Of a stretch of 64,000 nt of DNA, positions 50,134 through 62,729 are shown one piece after another. Each line of letters starts with the position of its first letter. The first letter of the stretch is position 1. The notes beneath the pieces were generated by a model. It was given only the letters and a program-made list of their open reading frames with translations, was not told the origin of the DNA and made no database searches. A program made the position numbers and the translations under genes. This stretch comes from an uncultured Nitrospiraceae bacterium (GTDB taxonomy: Bacteria > Nitrospirota > Nitrospiria > Nitrospirales > Nitrospiraceae). The stretch spans positions 416,001 to 480,000 of the forward strand of contig CAVPLT010000001.1 of NCBI GenBank assembly GCA_963706325.1, read 5' to 3'.

Positions 50134-53100
50134 TCATGCGGTCAGTTGCTCGATGCGGCGTAGCATCGTCTGGATGTAGCTGTCTTGGTCCTCCTCTTGG
50201 AACAGGATGTGCCGCTTATTCATCGCCTTCTTGTCCACCCCCCAGAGCATCTTCATGGTATGCGACGGCGTGTTTGAAATGATGAATGAGTCCAGCACCA
50301 CCTTCGGATCTCCGAGCCGCTGCTCGATCTTCTTAATTGTCCTCGTAAAACTGGATCTTCAGATCGTCCGCGCCGATGTTTCGGATGCCCTTCGGATCGA
50401 CGAAGATCACATGCTGACTATCACCCAACAGCAGCCACAGGATGAAGTCGGGGTGGAAGTTACCGGCCTCAAAGAAGCCGACGCCGCGCCCCTTGCTCAG
50501 ATTGCGAAGCAGGTAGAGCTCCCTGCTCTTGAAGAAGTCGACGTTGTCCATCATGGAATGCCTTGAGATCCTCGACGAACTGGCGCTCGCCCTTGTTGAG
50601 CGGGGCGGGGCTGATCTCGACAATGTTCGTGTCCAGATAGAGCAGTGGCTGATACAGGTGTCTGCCGAACCAGATGGCCTTCATGCCCTGGAACTCCCAA
50701 GGCTTGAGGTCACCCTTCTCGATCGCGGCCTTGAGCTCCTCGAGCTTGGCGACGATCTCTTCCTGCGATTTGTCGATCAGGATGCGGTAGTAGCCCTTGT
50801 CCGGTGATTCCTTCACGCACAGGAAGTTCGGATCGTCTCCCTCCAGATCGCGATACTCCAGGTGCGGCAGCTCCCACTCACGCTTGCGGAAGGTGTAGTA
50901 GCGCTCGGTGTACTTCTTGAGCAGCGACAAGGCGATCTCTTCCCACAGCCGCACCTTCTCGAATGAATCGAAGGCCAGCTCCTCGGCGGGAATCAGCAGC
51001 CGGTACCAGCTCTGATCGGCGAGCAGCGCCTCGATTCCCTGCCGCGTCAGGTTCAGGTTGTACCAGCCTCGCTCCGCCTTGAACCGCTCCAGCTCGAAGT
51101 AGAGGCGGTCGAGATCGAGGAAGGCCACATGCCGGGCGCGTCAGAGTGAGTCTCATTCGGCACGGCATCCGCGTCACCGCCCACCAGGCCGCCCGACTTC
51201 ATCGCCTGGATCTTCGGGTACCAGTTGAGTACGACCTGGTTCTTCTGCAGGTACTCCGTCGCTCCGATCGTCCGGCGGGGTCCGGCTTGGCCAGTGTCGG
51301 CACCGGCGCAAGCTTGCGAAACGCGTCGCCGAACTCGGTGCTCACGCCGTTGATCGTCTTCTTGAGGCGGATCGTCTTGAGCTTCTGCGTGCCGAGGTTC
51401 TTGATGACCGGCAGCAGGAACTCGATGCGGTCGTCGTTGGTGGGCAGCCCCTCCTCTTCGAGGAAGTCGCGGAACTGCGCCATGTAGTCGGCGTGGATGC
51501 CGAAGATGCCGAGCGTCTCCAGCACGCTGATGTGCTTGGGTCGCTCGACGCCTTCCGGCAGCTGGGCCTTGCCGCTGCGCTTGAGGCTCATGTCGTAGCC
51601 CTTGAGGCGCACGCCGCGACCGAAGAGCTGGATGATCTGCGCGCCTTCTCCCTTGCCGACGTTCATCAGGCCCATGGTGCGAGACGCGCCAACTGCTCCA
51701 GCCCTCGGTGAACTTCTTCGAGCCGATCAGCAGGTTCACCGTCGAGTGCGGCTGTATTGATCTCGTGGAAGAGCGATCCCGAGAACTCGCGATCGCCGGT
51801 GGCGAGGCCGTTCTCCTCGCACAGCTTCACCAGCTTGGCATCGTCGCCCACGTTGATGACGCCGAAGGCCTCGTTCTCGGCGCCCAGCCGCAGCGCCACT
51901 TCGCCGGTCGCGCCCTTCAGGTTCTCGACGTAGAGCTGGCCGCCGCCCGGCGCGTTGAAGAGCGTCGCGAGCGTCTCGTCGAAGACCTGCGCCGGCGAGA
52001 GGCCACACGTGTTGAGATACGTGAAGCGCCCGGCAAACAGGTTCTTGCCCGTCGCGGTGACGAGCCCCTGGTTCAGCACGCGCTCGATGCGCTGGATGCT
52101 GCCCGTCCGGTCTGCCACGTAGCGGGCCAGGAACTGCAGGATCTCGACGATGTCCGAAGCATCCCGCGTCGCCAGCGTCGCTGTCACACTGCCGCCGACG
52201 AAGATCCACAAGCGGCTTCTCGATGTTGAATGGCCGGAACGACGCCTCCTGTTCGCGGTACAGCCGCTGCTGCTGAAAGAACGACAGCAGGCAGGCCACC
52301 AGATACAGCTCCAGGTGGTTCTGCTGCGTTCCCTCGTCGAGGTTCAGGATCTGGTAGTCCTTGCCGAAGCCGTCGCCGTAGAAGTAGCGGTAGGAGTAGT
52401 CGAAGAGCGTGCTCTTGGCGTAGAGCTCGGTGAGCTTGGGCTTGCCCTTGACCGCCTGTCCGAACGTGGCCGAGTACTCGAACGAGAAGCCCTTCTCGCA
52501 GAGCGCGTTGCGGAAGCGCATCCACGCGCCTTCTTCGCCGCCGCTGGCGCCACGATGGCCCTCGTCCACCAGCACCAGGTTGTTGCCCTCGAAGGCGTCG
52601 ATGGCGATCGTCTTGTCGCCCATGTCCTCGCGCAGCCTGGTGACTTCGAGGATCTCGACCGCGCGCCCGGCGAAGAGTCCGCGCCCGTCCTTGTTGAACA
52701 GCTCCGCGTCGATGCCTGCCGTCTCGAACTCGCGCAGGTGCTGCTGCGACAGCCCCTCGTTGGGCGTGAGCAGGAGGATGCGGTTCAGCTCGCGGCCGCC
52801 GGCCATGCTTCTCCAAGCTAGTGCTGATACTGGAGGATGTTGGCGTGCATCAGCAGCGTCTTGCCGCTGCCGGTGGCGCTCCAGTAGGCCAGCTTGTTGA
52901 GCTGCGGCCAGGCTTCGGCGGCCTCGTCGAAGGGCGCAATCTGGTCTGCCTCAGGCTTGTCCGCATTGTAGGCGGCCACCTGCGCGTTCAGCACCGCGAG
53001 CAGCGCCTTGGGATCGCGGAAGTAGCGGTCGAGGTAGATCTCGGTGAACAGCAGCGTCAGGTACTGGAAGTACTTCCAGACGATCGGCTCCTCGCCGCGC

Positions 53101-53442
53101 GTAATGCGTTGCTCGTTCAGTCGCTGCGTGTGCCGTGACGATGTTCTGGTCGTATTCCAGCAGCAGATCGGTGGGCAGGTGCGTCAGGTTGAAGAGTTGC
53201 GCTGTGAGCGCGTGATGGAAGTGATGAATGTTGTTCTCGTCCAGACCTTCGAGTGCCTCGTTCCGCAGGTGCTCGGCCAGCTCCTCGAAGCGCTTCACGT
53301 TGAACAGCGAGAGCAGCCACTGGTTGAGCACCAGCTTGTAGGCGAACGGTATCTGTGGCCGGTTGTTGGCGCGACCGCGCGGCGCGGTGGGTGCGGCGGC
53401 GGTCGCTCCAGTGGCGTTCCTGCGTGGACGTCCGCGCGGCAT
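50134..53442 (-). pseudogene. res: Type III restriction enzyme Res subunit with about 9-10 frameshifts
   Basis: [29 protein letters not shown] and FHPDF...VDPKG motifs distributed across successive frames. Confidence 0.88.
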
Positions 53443-54596
53443 CAGCGTCTCTCCTCGTCGGCCTGGCGCGCATCGATCAGCCGCCGTTCGCGTTCGATCT
53501 CGCGCGTGAGCTCCCGTTCAGTCGGCAAGACTTTGACATACTTGGCGGCGAAGATCTGGCTCCCCTCGTTCAGCACCGAGTACTTCGCGATGGCCTCGTT
53601 CTTCTTCGAGCACAGGATCAAGCCAATGGTCGGGTTGTCACCCTTGGGCCGCGCATGGGCGTCGAACATGCGCACGTAGGAATCCATTTGGCCGATGTCC
53701 TGGTGGGTGAGCTTGCCGACCTTGAGGTCGATCAGCACGAAGCATCGGAGCAGGTAGTTGTAGAACACCAGATCGACGTAAAAGTCCTCGTCCTCAAATC
53801 GCATCCGTCTCTGCCTCGCCACGAACGAGAAGCCCTTGCCCAACTCCAGCAGGAAGGCTTGCAGATTGTCGATAATGGCCTGTTCCACCGTCGATTCGCG
53901 CAGCGCCGGATAGTCCTTCAGGTCAAGGAACTCGAGCACGTACGGGTCGCGGATGAACTGTTCCGGCGTAACGGCAGCGAGCTTCTCCCGGGCTTCCTTG
54001 CGGACCGGCACTTTCCTGCGACTGGCCAGCAGCCGCTCGTAATAGAGCACCGCGATCTGGCGCTCGAGCTGGCGGGTGGACCAGTGTTGGTCTGCGGCTT
54101 TGTTCATGTACCACTCCCGGGCCGCCGGGTTCTCCACCTGCATCAGCAGCCGATAGTGGCTCCAGCTCAATTCATCACAGGCCCTGTGGCGAATGGGCTC
54201 GACGCCGGAAGCGAGACGCGCCGCGTCTCGTTTCCTCTGGCCTGATTCGAGACCCACTGCGTCTCGAATCTCGAACATCCGGTAGAACTGCCGCATCTTG
54301 CGCAGGTTGGTAATATCGAACCCGCGGCCGAACTCCGCCATGAGCCGCCGCGAGAGGTTGTCCAGCACTGCCTCACCGTACGCGGCGCGTTTCGCCCCGC
54401 CTTGCTCGTCCTCCACGATGAGGCGTCCGATGTGCCAATAGGCCTGCACCATCGCCGCATTGACGGCGCGGTAGACCCCGGCGCGAGCCGATTCGAGGAC
54501 AGCCCGGATCTCCCGATACAGCGGGTCGGCGGAGCGAGAGACGGCAGGACGGGGAGAACGGGAGACGGGGTGACGGGGAGACTTGAAGCGAGCCAT
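53442..54596 (-). CDS. YhcG/DUF1016 PD-(D/E)XK nuclease-like protein
   Basis: [38 protein letters not shown] and PTIGLILC motifs. Confidence 0.93.
54533..54582. repeat. Tandem ~8-mer array (GGGGAGAC-type), one arm of an inverted pair
   Basis: GCGAGAGAC GGCAGGAC GGGGAGAAC GGGAGAC GGGGTGAC GGGGAGAC. Confidence 0.8.
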
Positions 54597-55025
54597 TAAT
54601 CCTTGCTTCCCTTTGTTTCCACTGTCCAGCGATCGGCTTGATTGATCACGGTCACCAGTTGGGAAAGGATGTGTTCGTACTGGGTATCCAGCTCCTTTGC
54701 CCGATCCGATTCCATGTAACCACAGCGCAGCGCGAACTCGATCCAAGTCTGAGTTTCACACGCTTCGCTTTCGGCATCACTCAGCTTCGCGATGAAGGCA
54801 GCCTCGTAACGACGCTTTCTCCACGCCTCGGCGATGTTGGCCGCGACGGAACGCGAGACCGTCGGATCTGGTCGGTCATGCTATACCGCTCTTCCATTGG
54901 AAAGCGCTTGGTCACTTCAAAGACTGCCATCCCGGCATCCATCGCGTTCTGCCAAACCCGCAAATCGTGATAGCCCTTGATCTGCCCTCTCTCCCCGTCG
55001 CCCCGTCCCCCTGTCGCCCCGTCTT

Positions 55026-55029
<4 letters not shown>
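54596..55029 (-). CDS. Four-helix-bundle protein (23S rRNA IVP / TIGR02436 family) with a 1-nt deletion near 54858
   Basis: [22 protein letters not shown], then in the next frame [11 protein letters not shown]...[13 protein letters not shown]. Confidence 0.9.
54984..55023. repeat. Tandem 8-mer array (NCCCCGTC-type), complementary arm
   Basis: GCCCTCTC TCCCCGTC GCCCCGTC CCCCTGTC GCCCCGTC. Confidence 0.8.
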
Positions 55030-58453
<3,424 letters not shown>

Positions 58454-58490
58454 CGGCTTTCCCATTGTTGGCCGCGTCGTGCCGGCTGGT

Positions 58491-59738
58491 TCATATCGTC
58501 TCCCACAGGGCGCGGATGGGGACGGCATACAGTCCATCGCCAAATCCCGCGCTCGTCTCTCCGTCGTACAGCACAATGCCTGCGGCGAATCGCTTGCCTG
58601 CGGCATCCTTCAGCTTGCGCATGCCGCGAAAGTCCGCCGCGGTCACCGTGGCCGATGCTTTCACCTCCACTCCGGCCACTTGGCCGGCGCCGCGTTCCAG
58701 AACGAGGTCTACTTCGGCGCCGTCCTTGTCGCGATAGTGGTAGAACCGGATCTCCTCCTTGTGCCAGCTTGCCTGTCGGCGAAGCTCCTGGAACACGAAG
58801 GTCTCCAGCAGCTGGCCAAGCGTGCCACGGTCCTGTATGAGTGCGGAAGCGTCGAGACCCAGCAACGCACAGGCGAGTCCGGTGTCGCCCACATGCAGCT
58901 TCGGCGTTTTGATCAGGCGACTCAAACGGTTGCTGTGCCATGGCCGGAGCTCTTCCAGAAGAAATACCCTCTCGAGGAGTGTCACGTAATCGCGGATGGT
59001 CGGGCGGCTCAGGTGGAAGGGGCTCGCCAGATCGCTGATGTTGATCAGCCGGGCTGTCTGGCCGGCAGCAAGCGCCAACAATCGAGGGAGTGCGTCAAGT
59101 GAGGCGATGCGCGCCAGGTCACGGACATCTCGCTGGACGAGCGTCTCGATGTAGTCGCGATACCAGGCGGCCCGGCGGTGAGGAATGGATCTGGCGAGCG
59201 CCGCCGGATAGCCGCCGGCGGCGATGCGTTCGGCCAATGTCTTGCCCAGACGTTCAGCCTTGCCGGCCTTGAAGGCCCCGGCGAACAGTGTATCGAGAAA
59301 GCGCGGGAGGCGCTCGGTCAACTCACACTGCGCCAGCGGGTGCAGCCGCAGGAGGCCCATGCGCCCGGCCAGCGAGTCGGCAAGGGCCGGCAACAGCAGC
59401 ACATTGGCCGAGCCTGTGAGCAAGAAGCGGCCGGCGACACGCCGCCGGTCCACCGCCGACTTGAGCGTACTGAAAATGCCAGGGGCCCGCTGTACCTCAT
59501 CGAGAATCACCCGTTCCGGGAGATCGGCGACAAACCCTACCGGGTCGGCCATCGCCGCCGCGAGTGTCACGGCGTCATCGAAGCTGAAGTAAGCACGATC
59601 CCGCTCACGGCCGGCGGCCTGCGCCAGCGTGGTCTTGCCGCACTGGCGCGGGCCGTGGATCAAGACTACGGGCGTATCGGCCAACGCCTCGACCAGGCTA
59701 GGCTCGGCAAAACGGGGGTAGATGCGGTCAGCGGGCAT
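58491..59738 (-). CDS. AAA+ ATPase (AAA_14) with DUF4143 domain
   Basis: GPRQCGKTT, ILDEVQ, DSLAGR, KTPKLH and YRDKDGAEVDLVLE...VEVK motifs. Confidence 0.93.
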   Translation of the reverse strand: MPADRIYPRFAEPSLVEALADTPVVLIHGPRQCGKTTLAQAAGRERDRAYFSFDDAVTLAAAMADPVGFVADLPERVILDEVQRAPGIFSTLKSAVDRRRVAGRFLLTGSANVLLLPALADSLAGRMGLLRLHPLAQCELTERLPRFLDTLFAGAFKAGKAERLGKTLAERIAAGGYPAALARSIPHRRAAWYRDYIETLVQRDVRDLARIASLDALPRLLALAAGQTARLINISDLASPFHLSRPTIRDYVTLLERVFLLEELRPWHSNRLSRLIKTPKLHVGDTGLACALLGLDASALIQDRGTLGQLLETFVFQELRRQASWHKEEIRFYHYRDKDGAEVDLVLERGAGQVAGVEVKASATVTAADFRGMRKLKDAAGKRFAAGIVLYDGETSAGFGDGLYAVPIRALWETI

Positions 59739-59747
59739 ACCAGCCAG

Positions 59748-59822
59748 TTGTAATCTTGCATGGCGGCTGATTGCAATAATATAGCTCGTCCGATTGCAAG
59801 GTTATATCACGGCCCATTGCAA
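59748..59822. promoter_or_regulatory. 23-bp-period TTGCAA array upstream of the AAA-DUF4143 gene
   Basis: TTGTAA/TTGCAA at 59748, 59771, 59794 and 59817. Confidence 0.7.
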
Positions 59823-59834
59823 CCTGGTGGGTCA

Positions 59835-62729
59835 TTACGTCACGGCCCAGCGAATGGTAAAGAGCGCCTGAGTTGCAGTGTGCTGGGCAAGCCGCCGTTC
59901 CAACGATTCGATCAGGGAGTCGCGTTTCTCCATGATCTCGTCCTCGGCCTTGAAAATGTCCTGCCGCTGGCGGCGCTGCTGCTTTTCGAGTTTTTGTGAT
60001 TGCTTCTGAATCTCGTGCTGTTCTTCGAGCGTGACCGCCTGGCGCGCTTGCCGCCGTAACGCCTTGATCTGCTCTTTGGTATCCGCGAGGGCTTTCTCGG
60101 CCGACAGCACCATGTCATCGGCCCACTTCTCCAGTTTCTCGCGCGCCTGGTTGAAGTGGACGCTGTTCTGTTCGAGCGAGCGGCTCACGGTGGCCTTGGC
60201 GTGCCGCTCCGCCTCGGCGTTCAGGCGTTGCTGCTCGGCGGCTGGGATCGCCGCATCGCCATTCACGCGGCCTGAACAGCCGAAGAGCTTCTCCATCGTC
60301 TCCTGGTCGAGCGAGGCGCCGGACTCGTCGAACCCGGAGAAGAGCAGGTATTCCTCGCGCTCGTAGGACTCAACCAGGAGGTGTGTGAGCGTGAGGAAAC
60401 CGCGCTTACCGCGGAGTGCTTCGACCGCATGGATGTGGGTTGGATGACGCGATACGTCGAGGACGATCTGCGCCGCGGGAGTCGCGAGAGCCTTTGCGCT
60501 CTCCACGACATGCTCGCCCAGCGGGTGCGAGAGGCGGTAGAGGAACTGGCTGCGCTCCTCGCCGCCAACCTCATCACCGCCTGAAGTCGACTTAGGGTGC
60601 AACTTCGAGATCAAGTGGTAACGGCCGGTCGCGATCTCTGTGCGAGGCGGACGTTCGAGGTCGAAGGCCAGCGCGTCGTCGTCGAAGCGGGCGCGATCGT
60701 CCAGCATGAAGCGGGTCAGCAACCAGAAGCGCCGGCCGAAGCGATCGAGCTGAGCCTTCGCGTCGTCGAGCCGCAGTCGCAGGCGTTGATGCACGTCCTC
60801 GTCGAAGTGCTCGAACAGCGACCGACGAGTGTCATCCATGCGCGTGCGGATCTGCTCGTCCATTTCCGCCTGCAGGGTGCGGAAGGCGGCGTCGATTTCC
60901 TCAGGCGTGCGGCACTCCTGGTAGATGGCGAGGATGCGTTGCTCGAAGTCCACGCCGGACTCGATGGTCCCAAGCACCTCATCGGAGGCGCCGAAGACGC
61001 CGTTGAAGAGGCTGAACTTCTCGCTCAGCAGCTCGAGCACACGGCGGTCGGCCTTGTTGCGTTCGTTCAGGAAATTGATCACCACCACGTCGTGCCGTTG
61101 CCCATAGCGGTGGCAGCGGCCGATGCGTTGTTCGATGCGCTGCGGGTTCCAGGGTAGGTCATAATTGATGACCAGCGAGCAGAACTGCAAGTTGATACCC
61201 TCTGCTGCTGCCTCCGTGGCCAGCATGATCGAGGCCGTATCGCGGAAGTGTTCAATGAGCGCGGTGCGTAGATCCACTGCCCGCGAGCCGGATGCGCGCC
61301 CCGTATCCTTGTGCTTCTCGGCCCATCGCTCGTAGATCGTCGTCGCCTCCGGCCCACCATTCGTTCCGTTGAAGAGCACCACCTGCCCCTGATAGCCGTG
61401 GGATTCGAGAAACCCCTTCAGGTACTCCTGAGTGCGTCGTGATTCTGTGAAGATGAGCGCCTTGCTCGCCGCGCCGGTCGCAGCGATCTGTTTGAAGCCG
61501 ATGTCTAGGGCGATGAGCAGGCTTTTTGTCTTTGTGTCGGTACCGATACTTCGCGCCCAGGCGGCGAGCCGTTGCAGCATGTCGATCTCTTCACGCAGCT
61601 TCTGCCGATCGATGGTGCGCGGCGCGCTTACGGCCTGGGTTTCGTCAGGCTCCGCGAGGATCTCGTCGAGCAGGTCGTCCTCGATTTCCTCGGCTTCGAT
61701 GAGCCCCTCGGTGAACTCCGGGTCGTCCTGTACCTTCTCGTCACGCAACGTTTCGAGGCGTGTGCGCAGCTTGTCCAGCGTGGCCGCGATGGCCTGCGAC
61801 GACGACGCCAATAGTTTGCGCAGGATGAGCGCGGTCAGATGACGCTGGCGCTGGGGGAGCGCATAACTGTCTTCGCGTTGCAGGAACCCGGACACCGCCT
61901 CGTAGAGCGCGTGCTCATCGTCGCTTGGCGTGAACGGCTGCGTGATCGGCCGCCGCTCGGTGTAGCGGATATACTCAGTGACCTGATTGCGCAGCGTGCG
62001 TTTGCAGAAGTCTGAGAGACGCTGACGCAGCTCGCCGATGCTGGTGCCGGCGCTGGCGTATTGGCTGCGGAAGGAGTTGAGATCCCCGAACAGGTGCTCG
62101 TCGATCAGGGTCGAGAGGCCGTACAGTTCGAGCAGTGAGTTCTGCAGCGGCGTGGCTGTGAGCAAGAGCTTGCGGCAGTCTTCCGTCCCCCATCGGATGC
62201 CTTGACCGACCTTGTTACTCGGCCGGTACGCGTTGCGCAGCTTGTGGGCCTCATCGATCACGACGAGATTCCAAGCGATGTTTTTCAGTTCCTCGCGCAT
62301 CGCGTTCGCATAGTTCAAGGACATGATGATCACGGCCTTCTCGTTCAAAGGCGCGCGCCCACTCCGCTGCGCCTCGCGGTAGGCCTTGGCGTCGAGCACC
62401 CGTGTGGGCAGGTTGAACTTCTCCTGCAGCTCCATCGCCCACTGCTTGCGCAGCGATGCCGGGCAGATCACCAGCAACCGGCGCTTGCGTTCCGCCCAGA
62501 ACTGGCAGAGCACGATGCCCGCTTCGATTGTCTTACCAAGGCCGACTTCGTCGGCCAGTATTACGCCATTGGAGAGCGGTGACTGCAGAGCGAAAAGCGC
62601 AGCTTCAATCTGGTGCGGGTTGAGATCGACCGCCGCGTCGAATAAGGACATCGACAGCCGATCCATGCCGCTCACAGCCCGGCGGGTCAAATCATGAGCA
62701 AAGTATTTGGCATGGTAAGGGGTGAGCAT
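59835..62729 (-). CDS. SNF2-family helicase (RapA/DrmD-like) with coiled-coil C-terminus
   Basis: ADEVGLGKT, IDEAHK, LTATPLQN, EGINLQ and DLPWNPQRIEQRIGRCHRYGQ motifs. Confidence 0.93.
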   Translation of the reverse strand: MLTPYHAKYFAHDLTRRAVSGMDRLSMSLFDAAVDLNPHQIEAALFALQSPLSNGVILADEVGLGKTIEAGIVLCQFWAERKRRLLVICPASLRKQWAMELQEKFNLPTRVLDAKAYREAQRSGRAPLNEKAVIIMSLNYANAMREELKNIAWNLVVIDEAHKLRNAYRPSNKVGQGIRWGTEDCRKLLLTATPLQNSLLELYGLSTLIDEHLFGDLNSFRSQYASAGTSIGELRQRLSDFCKRTLRNQVTEYIRYTERRPITQPFTPSDDEHALYEAVSGFLQREDSYALPQRQRHLTALILRKLLASSSQAIAATLDKLRTRLETLRDEKVQDDPEFTEGLIEAEEIEDDLLDEILAEPDETQAVSAPRTIDRQKLREEIDMLQRLAAWARSIGTDTKTKSLLIALDIGFKQIAATGAASKALIFTESRRTQEYLKGFLESHGYQGQVVLFNGTNGGPEATTIYERWAEKHKDTGRASGSRAVDLRTALIEHFRDTASIMLATEAAAEGINLQFCSLVINYDLPWNPQRIEQRIGRCHRYGQRHDVVVINFLNERNKADRRVLELLSEKFSLFNGVFGASDEVLGTIESGVDFEQRILAIYQECRTPEEIDAAFRTLQAEMDEQIRTRMDDTRRSLFEHFDEDVHQRLRLRLDDAKAQLDRFGRRFWLLTRFMLDDRARFDDDALAFDLERPPRTEIATGRYHLISKLHPKSTSGGDEVGGEERSQFLYRLSHPLGEHVVESAKALATPAAQIVLDVSRHPTHIHAVEALRGKRGFLTLTHLLVESYEREEYLLFSGFDESGASLDQETMEKLFGCSGRVNGDAAIPAAEQQRLNAEAERHAKATVSRSLEQNSVHFNQAREKLEKWADDMVLSAEKALADTKEQIKALRRQARQAVTLEEQHEIQKQSQKLEKQQRRQRQDIFKAEDEIMEKRDSLIESLERRLAQHTATQALFTIRWAVT

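What the first reader, a model, noticed from the sequence alone, without database searches (positions are those of the whole stretch)
54533..55029. Four-helix-bundle gene enclosed by inverted arrays of 8-mer repeats, like an intervening sequence inside an mRNA
Seen: on the mRNA strand, five GACGGGGN-type units open the four-helix gene (55023-54984), and about six complementary TCTCCCCG-type units follow it inside the start of yhcG (54582-54533). They can pair into a roughly 40-bp register-shiftable stem that loops out the ORF. Both arrays are translated as low-complexity N-terminal tails. Known: this family was first found in excised 23S rRNA intervening sequences and is structurally related to the DGR accessory protein Avd. 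Inference: a small cassette (repeat arm - gene - repeat arm) that inserts into defence operons while preserving translational coupling, with the stem acting as a processing, recombination or protein-binding signal. This is my best candidate for an undescribed system here.
Basis: partly seen in the sequence, partly recalled or inferred. Interest (0 to 1): 0.82.

Follow-up and report, generated by a model that had tools for sequence, protein, structure and literature searches.

The report
Repeat-armed four-helix gene cassette
A small gene of unknown function sits inside a restriction-enzyme operon between two mirror-image runs of an 8-base repeat; most relatives of this gene that were sampled carry the same kind of bracket, its sequence follows the protein's lineage, and it shows no sign of being selected as an RNA stem.

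Summary
Five GACGGGGN-type units (55023-54984) and about six complementary units (54581-54535) enclose a TIGR02436/PF05635 four-helix gene. It is the only such strict pair in the 4.2-Mb genome.

It is one member of a general cassette. Of 175 relatives, 150 have inverted arms of 7-9-base units. Arm sequence follows the protein, not the host site. The cassette is absent from 80 of 80 close mod operons. Named neighbours are mostly housekeeping genes, so it is not defence-specific.

The mRNA-stem reading is weakened. The arms show no G·U excess (151 versus 161; tRNA control 24 versus 3) and no sense-strand preference.

Best reading: a gene-plus-arms unit exchanged at operon junctions, whose arms are inverted arrays of DNA sites for its own pentameric protein. 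Binding is inferred, not shown. A gene-less 7-mer hairpin sits in frame in mod, in a loop that takes four different palindromes in different alleles.

Ten literature searches found no description. This scan noted the class earlier on other DNA (64 findings).

The parts
54984..55023 (-). 5' arm: five GACGGGGN-type 8-mer units, translated as codons 3-15 of the four-helix gene
54596..55029 (-). four-helix-bundle gene (TIGR02436/PF05635); ATG overlaps the mod stop; one base missing near 54855 (frameshift in this assembly)
   Evidence: intact in L113/L114; the model of the L113 protein matches 2GSC (Z 19.4, rmsd 1.4, 113 aligned) and Avd (Z 14.5, rmsd 1.7, 106 aligned)
54535..54581 (-). 3' arm: about six TCTCCCCG-type units, translated as the N-terminus of YhcG
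   Evidence: the same register pattern encodes the Res N-terminus in L115 and L116
53442..54596 (-). yhcG (DUF1016_N + YhcG_C PD-(D/E)XK; PADLOC PDC-S02), the downstream host gene
55299..55385 (-). second element: gene-less in-frame hairpin of inverted 7-mer (TTCAGTG-type) arrays replacing a 7-codon loop of Mod
   Evidence: z -3.5; exact contig of run X1 over 55065-55412
55026..58438 (-). type III methyltransferase gene (mod), upstream host gene; one frame break near 57365-57650; start approximate
50176..53442 (-). type III restriction gene (res) with about ten single-base indels against relatives; end approximate

Best explanation
The element is a compact genetic unit of about 0.5 kb: repeat arm, PF05635 gene, inverted repeat arm. 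SHOWN: it lodges at gene junctions inside operons. Here it uses the host's coupled start codon and supplies a new coupled start with the 3' arm in frame, so the downstream gene stays translatable. It is gained, lost and exchanged as a whole, and its arm unit is specific to the protein's lineage. INFERRED: the arms are inverted arrays of sites read by the cassette's own protein, a basic pentameric barrel like Xcc0516 and Avd, with about one unit per protomer crevice. INFERRED: reading happens on DNA (duplex, or hairpins on both strands alike), so that both ends present the same word facing inward, like iterated sub-terminal sites. This binding keeps the unit conserved and probably autoregulates the gene and marks the ends. 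INFERRED: with no enzyme in the cassette, movement between alleles relies on host recombination through the flanking genes. Gene-less hairpins, such as the one in mod, are derivatives that persist where a junction or protein loop tolerates them. The copy in this window is frameshifted, by decay of the island or by local assembly error.
For: 150 of 175 non-redundant homologous loci score above the 99th percentile of 600 control genes for inverted flanks, against 16 of 175 in direct orientation. Among the 149 armed homologues, cross-locus arm complementarity rises with protein identity, from 2% of pairs below 30% identity to 94% above 80%. Arms follow the protein, not the site: same junction with protein under 45% identical, 0 of 24 pairs match; different junction with protein at least 55% identical, 23 of 55; different junction and distant protein, 6 of 741. 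2 of 12 host junctions hold cassettes of two unrelated clades with different units. 0 of 80 close mod loci carry the gene; by my reading 51 join mod to res directly, 11 have yhcG first and 18 other genes. Window and L116 mod alleles, both cassette carriers, are rejected as one clade (AU p 0.005), as are the three 7-mer-hairpin carriers (p 0.0005). Strand symmetry: G·U 151 versus A·C 161, tRNA control 24 versus 3; sense duplex more stable in 79 loci, antisense in 70, of 150. Fold: 2GSC, 2RLD, Avd. In Avd, flipped-out bases sit in crevices between protomers (10.1101/2023.10.23.563531, section 8).
Against: No binding is shown. The only relative with a known ligand (Avd) binds RNA in its solved complex. 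A residue-to-unit code could not be separated from ancestry: only 4 independent pairs were available. Co-inheritance of gene and arms alone predicts much of the covariation. Own arms pair somewhat better than those of the nearest relative (47 versus 28 of 78 disjoint pairs, p 0.04), which fits selection on pairing or copying between arms. 32 of 40 Pfam-named neighbours are co-oriented, as an mRNA-level role would predict. Cassettes persist at the same junction over 55-70% protein identity, so they do not hop often. 25 of 175 loci have no detectable arms. The loci are best hits of three searches, not a random sample.
Confidence: 0.48

Rival explanations
1. mRNA intervening sequence: the arms pair in the transcript, RNase III or a similar enzyme cuts the stem, the ORF is released, and the operon mRNA is split or its stability changed. 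The protein binds the stem.
For: The stem folds at z -3.24. The Coxiella IVS has terminal inverted repeats forming a 28-bp stem cut by RNase III around an ORF of this family (PMC4990558, passages). 32 of 40 named neighbours are co-oriented. Own arms pair better than cross arms, 47 versus 28. Avd binds an RNA stem-loop.
Against: No G·U over A·C excess (151 versus 161) where a tRNA control gives 24 versus 3. No sense-strand energy preference. Cassettes antisense to both neighbours exist (L171, L183). Here both arms are translated, so ribosomes would unwind the stem. Arms match relatives' arms almost as well as their own (medians 35.5 versus 31.3), so the unit matters more than the partner.
Confidence: 0.2
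2. Ring-on-repeat RNA regulator: the pentamer wraps the single-stranded G-rich units of its own mRNA, one per protomer, and represses its own translation or switches pairing with the complementary 3' arm, tuning the downstream gene. This is analogous to TRAP attenuation, recalled and not checked here.
For: About five units per arm here and a five-chain protein in 2GSC and 2RLD. Avd reads single flipped-out RNA bases in equivalent crevices. The arms lie at the start of the cassette gene and at the start of the next gene. The 5' arm is G-rich in 138 of 150 loci.
Against: It needs the 3' arm as an anti-site, which again predicts a G·U excess that is absent. It does not explain gene-less in-frame hairpins deep in mod or antisense cassettes.
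Confidence: 0.17
3. Passive by-product: the arms arose once per lineage by slippage and template switching, are homogenised by copying between inverted repeats, and ride with a gene kept for some unrelated function. The protein does not read them.
For: Kin share labels, and the residue-code test was inconclusive. Strand symmetry is what mutation alone gives. Cassettes are long-lived at fixed junctions.
Against: Units stay recognisable at different loci and at 55-70% protein identity while array lengths and neighbouring DNA turn over. At least eight clades each have their own unit in the same layout. Such arrays are otherwise nearly absent from this genome.
Confidence: 0.15

Closest known systems
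ORF-bearing intervening sequences of 23S rRNA (Coxiella burnetii, Leptospira; PMC4990558, passages read)
   Same: About 0.45 kb, terminal inverted repeats around an ORF of the same protein family, sporadic distribution, reuse of tolerant sites.
   Different: Sits in a protein-coding operon, not rRNA. The arms are tandem arrays of a clade-specific 7-9-mer and are partly translated. No RNA-stem signature in the mismatches.
Avd of diversity-generating retroelements (PDB 4DWL, 8UB7; bioRxiv 2023.10.23.563531, passages and section 8 read)
   Same: Same fold (Z 14.5-14.9); pentameric basic barrel that reads nucleic acid at protomer crevices.
   Different: Only 12% identity; no reverse transcriptase or template/variable repeat seen among the neighbours scanned; flanking arrays are not a DGR feature in what I read.
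MITEs, REP elements and in-frame palindromic repeats (review PMC3184786, passages read; RAYT transposase and Rickettsia elements largely recalled)
   Same: Inverted ends, hairpin-forming, intergenic or fused in frame to proteins; gene-less derivatives occur.
   Different: Carries its own conserved non-transposase gene; ends are iterated short units; no target duplication seen; single copy in this genome.
PF05635 genes inside cas loci (PMC3936711, one passage read)
   Same: The same gene wedged tightly between operon genes; conserved GxxRxxxSxxxNxxE-type motif.
   Different: That passage does not mention flanking arrays; my sample shows the habit is not specific to defence loci.
STRR heptamer repeats of cyanobacteria (recalled; one search gave no usable paper)
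   Same: Short tandem 7-mer arrays, often in inverted pairs.
   Different: Link to a protein family not known to me; not tested here.

Membership tests
TIGR02436 / PF05635 four-helix-bundle protein family | HMM score above the curated cut-off | tested here: met
   Both halves pass TIGR02436 (29.5 and 63.5 bits, cut-off 24) and PF05635 (37.8 and 55.1, cut-off 33.8)
TIGR02436 / PF05635 four-helix-bundle protein family | Four-helix fold like Xcc0516 | tested here: met
   Model of the intact relative L113, pLDDT 94.8; 2GSC Z 19.4, rmsd 1.4, 113 aligned
rRNA intervening sequence (IVS) | Located in an rRNA gene | tested here: not met
   Lies between mod and yhcG; no Rfam match in 52000-60000
rRNA intervening sequence (IVS) | Complementary termini able to form a stem around an S23p-type ORF | tested here: met
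rRNA intervening sequence (IVS) | Stem selected as RNA on the transcribed strand | tested here: not met
   G·U 151 versus A·C 161 over 150 loci; tRNA control 24 versus 3. tRNA is a stricter structure than a processing stem, so this lowers rather than excludes.
rRNA intervening sequence (IVS) | Excision by RNase III without religation | not testable with these tools
   Only assembled contigs were available
Diversity-generating retroelement (Avd) | Adjacent reverse transcriptase with template and variable repeats | tested here: not met
   Neighbours in the window are mod, yhcG, res, an AAA protein and a SNF2 helicase; no RT family among 40 named neighbours of homologues
MITE / insertion sequence | Terminal inverted repeats | tested here: met
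MITE / insertion sequence | Target-site duplication | tested here: inconclusive
   None visible in filled versus empty junctions, but alleles are only 70-90% identical; the mod hairpin replaces about 19 bases rather than duplicating any
MITE / insertion sequence | Transposase in the element, or many near-identical copies in the genome | tested here: not met
   One PF05635 gene in G000; one strict array pair; the protein matches no PADLOC model and its fold matches are not transposases
Type III restriction-modification operon (host) | Mod and Res homologues in one operon | tested here: met
   PADLOC MTase_III and REase_III; both carry frame breaks

The most novel reading that the evidence does not exclude
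PF05635 proteins are a very widespread family of sequence-specific pentameric readers of short tandem DNA words, each clade with its own 7-9-base word. Gene and inverted arrays form a transposase-free element that the protein itself helps to spread into operon junctions and tolerant protein loops in a homing-like way. The invariant Q, E, R and E residues might form a nicking or strand-holding site. Avd of DGRs and the rRNA IVSs would then be domesticated offshoots.
Probability: 0.22. Interest if true: 0.88.

Novelty: new variant of a known kind. Interest (0 to 1): 0.62.

Why it matters
PF05635 genes were found in 98 of 121 genomes of the window's family and have no known function outside DGRs. 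Clade-specific flanking words give each protein a predicted ligand, so a long-open question (what these proteins do, and what maintains short 7-9-mer arrays in bacteria) becomes a simple binding experiment with built-in cross-clade controls. If a small pentamer reads a changeable repeat word, it is a new type of nucleic-acid recognition module. The elements also rewrite protein N-termini and loops in frame, here in a restriction system. This particular copy is frameshifted and adds little by itself beyond the comparative handle.

Tried and rejected
Literature: ten full-text searches gave no paper describing repeat arrays around this gene family. The library lacks most subscription journals. 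I opened no supplements, and bioRxiv supplements are closed, so a mention there would be missed. PMC5524665, PMC10053308 and bioRxiv 2024.02.27.582315 (passages only) list the gene without arrays.

Residue-to-unit code: the period changes 6 times on a tree of 139 proteins, but only 4 independent pairs exist, so no column can reach significance.

GxxExxY (PF13366) partner in this genome: none found. Rfam: nothing.

Reads: X1, X3, X6 and X15 are contigs only. No shown piece bridges the frameshift near 54855. The X15 contig that joins mod to res without the cassette is about 85% identical, so it is a relative's empty allele and not splicing.

The full 79-row tree did not finish its clade tests; they were rerun on 28 of those rows with LG+G4, groups named before the tree was seen. 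A DNA search of 60 relatives found no whole copy of the cassette, only short 68-87% matches to the gene in 3. Defence specificity was rejected. No complex prediction was run, since solved homologues already show five chains.

Full report
Observation. On the minus strand the operon runs SNF2 helicase, AAA protein, type III mod, four-helix gene, yhcG, type III res. The four-helix ATG (55029) overlaps the mod stop and is followed after one codon by five 8-mer units (55023-54984). Its stop overlaps the yhcG ATG (54596), and about six complementary units follow four codons later (54581-54535). The arms pair over 34 nt at 85% and the RNA folds at z -3.24. Among 30 strict 7/8-mer arrays in the 4.2-Mb genome this is the only inverted pair. 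The gene passes TIGR02436 and PF05635 in two pieces because one base is missing near 54855 relative to L113 and L114, which are 94-95% identical in protein, intact, and followed by the same 3' arm, yhcG and res. res has about ten more single-base indels, while 20 housekeeping loci (14.8 kb) show none. A contig of run X6 that is 98% identical differs by three gaps within res. I cannot decide between local assembly error and decay of the island; no shown read piece covers the four-helix break.

The class. PF05635 occurs in 98 of 121 genomes of the window's family. I fetched 90 of those 328 matches, 80 metagenome relatives of the window's protein and 25 from the phylum. With the window that makes 196 loci; 187 had enough flank and 175 remained after removing near-copies. 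150 of 175 exceed the 99th percentile of 600 control genes for inverted flank similarity, against 16 of 175 in direct orientation. Units are 8-mers in 77, 7-mers in 67, and called 6 or 9 in 6 of the 150. Each protein clade has its own unit; the window's clade (motif AEAWRKRRY) mostly has purine-rich 8-mers. Cross-locus complementarity climbs with protein identity. Using the window's genome as the empty reference, 49 of 89 family loci map to 12 junctions. Two junctions hold cassettes of unrelated clades with different arms, and arms match across junctions when proteins are close (23 of 55 pairs) but never at one junction when proteins are distant (0 of 24). So gene and arms move as a unit. I submitted 69 of 153 candidate neighbours of close homologues to Pfam and 40 were named. 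About 4 are defence-like; the rest are replication, translation, chemotaxis, transport and metabolic genes; 32 are co-oriented and 8 opposite.

This site. None of the 80 best of 543 mod relatives has the gene nearby. By my reading 51 join mod to res directly, 11 have a yhcG-type gene first and 18 have other genes. The junction is thus a general slot for accessory genes. In L115, L116 and L117 a related cassette stands directly before res, and the 3' arm encodes the Res N-terminus. In L115 and L116 it has the same register irregularities as in the window, where it encodes the YhcG N-terminus. Cassette-free yhcG genes have other, mostly shorter N-termini. The window's mod is closest to cassette-free alleles (89% to L033), and a clade of window plus L116 is rejected (p 0.005; 28 of 79 rows). 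The cassette therefore moved between alleles or was lost repeatedly; the tree cannot tell which.

A second element. At 55299-55385 an inverted pair of 7-mer arrays with no gene replaces seven codons of Mod in frame (z -3.5; matched exactly by an X1 contig). The same loop holds a 7-mer hairpin in L046 and L070/L072, an 8-mer hairpin of the window's cassette type in L116, and two other palindrome types in L091 and L117; it is plain in the other 76 of 80. The three 7-mer carriers tested are not a clade (p 0.0005). L046 and L097 have further 7-mer hairpins elsewhere upstream in the mod region.

RNA or DNA. If the arms were selected as an mRNA stem, G·U mismatches should outnumber A·C. They do not (151 versus 161; loci 50 versus 50, 50 ties), while tRNA stems of this genome give 24 versus 3. 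Sense and antisense duplexes are equally stable (79 versus 70 of 150). Against my reading: own arms pair a little better than a relative's (47 versus 28 of 78, p 0.04), most neighbours are co-oriented, and Avd's known ligand is RNA.

Protein. The model of the intact relative (pLDDT 94.8) matches Xcc0516, BT_0352 and Avd above unrelated bundles; the first two have five chains per entry. Invariant polar residues in 31 sequences are Q42, E56, R61 and E80. In the DGR complex all five Avd protomers contact one RNA element and use the same residues of different protomers for flipped-out bases (bioRxiv 2023.10.23.563531, section 8). That suggests one repeat unit per crevice, which is inference. A residue-to-unit code could not be tested with power.

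Mechanism. Shown: the unit, its exchange, the clade-specific word and the strand symmetry. Inferred: self-recognition on DNA, autoregulation or end-marking, and spread through host recombination (0.48). Rivals: mRNA IVS (0.20), single-strand RNA ring regulator (0.17), passive by-product (0.15).

Comparison. It is built like an ORF-bearing 23S IVS (PMC4990558, passages) but is not one, as it is not in rRNA and lacks the RNA signature. It is not a DGR or a classical MITE. PMC3936711 (one passage) notes the gene inside cas operons without arrays. Ten searches found no description. The scan's notes hold 64 earlier findings of this class on other genomes; I used them as leads and tested the main claims here. 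Gene labels trxB and thiI, the TRAP analogy, STRR, and my guess that the host is Nitrospira-like are recalled and come from no call.

Verdict. A real feature and a frameshifted member of a widespread, apparently unpublished cassette class; interest 0.62.

Noticed in passing
window 55299-55385; L046, L070/L072, L091, L116, L117: One loop of type III Mod is replaced in frame by four different kinds of palindromic element in different alleles; carriers of the 7-mer type are not a clade.
   Followed up: yes
window 50176-53442, 54855 and near 57645: About a dozen single-base indels cluster in res, mod and the four-helix gene, while 20 housekeeping loci have none: decay of the island or a poorly polished stretch.
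   Followed up: partly
window 54204-54266: yhcG carries an internal 36-base duplication of a palindromic unit; L114 lacks one copy in frame.
   Followed up: no
G000 C1:949859-949947, C1:314000-314157, C1:429382-429444: Junctions where relatives hold a cassette appear by eye to keep short degenerate repeat remnants without a gene in this genome, sometimes of another unit type.
   Followed up: no
G000 C5:198838-199161: At the junction I take (from recall) for trxB-thiI, where six relatives hold a cassette, this genome has two diverged copies of a roughly 130-base element with an internal palindrome instead.
   Followed up: no
window 59764-59822: 2.6 copies of a 23-base tandem repeat between the SNF2 helicase and the AAA/DUF4143 gene.
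   Followed up: no
L117:2230-2340 (approximate): Upstream of the four-helix gene the 8-mer arrays also form a local hairpin, and about 0.7 kb of unrelated DNA separates it from mod.
   Followed up: no
G000 C4:670173, C1:1033308, C2:162340: A few other short 7/8-mer arrays, one with an inverted partner, with no PF05635 gene.
   Followed up: no
L203-L208 versus L209-L217: Sister clades differing in EGW versus EAW after the conserved N-x-x-E use 7-mer and 8-mer arms respectively: a natural pair for a specificity-swap test.
   Followed up: partly
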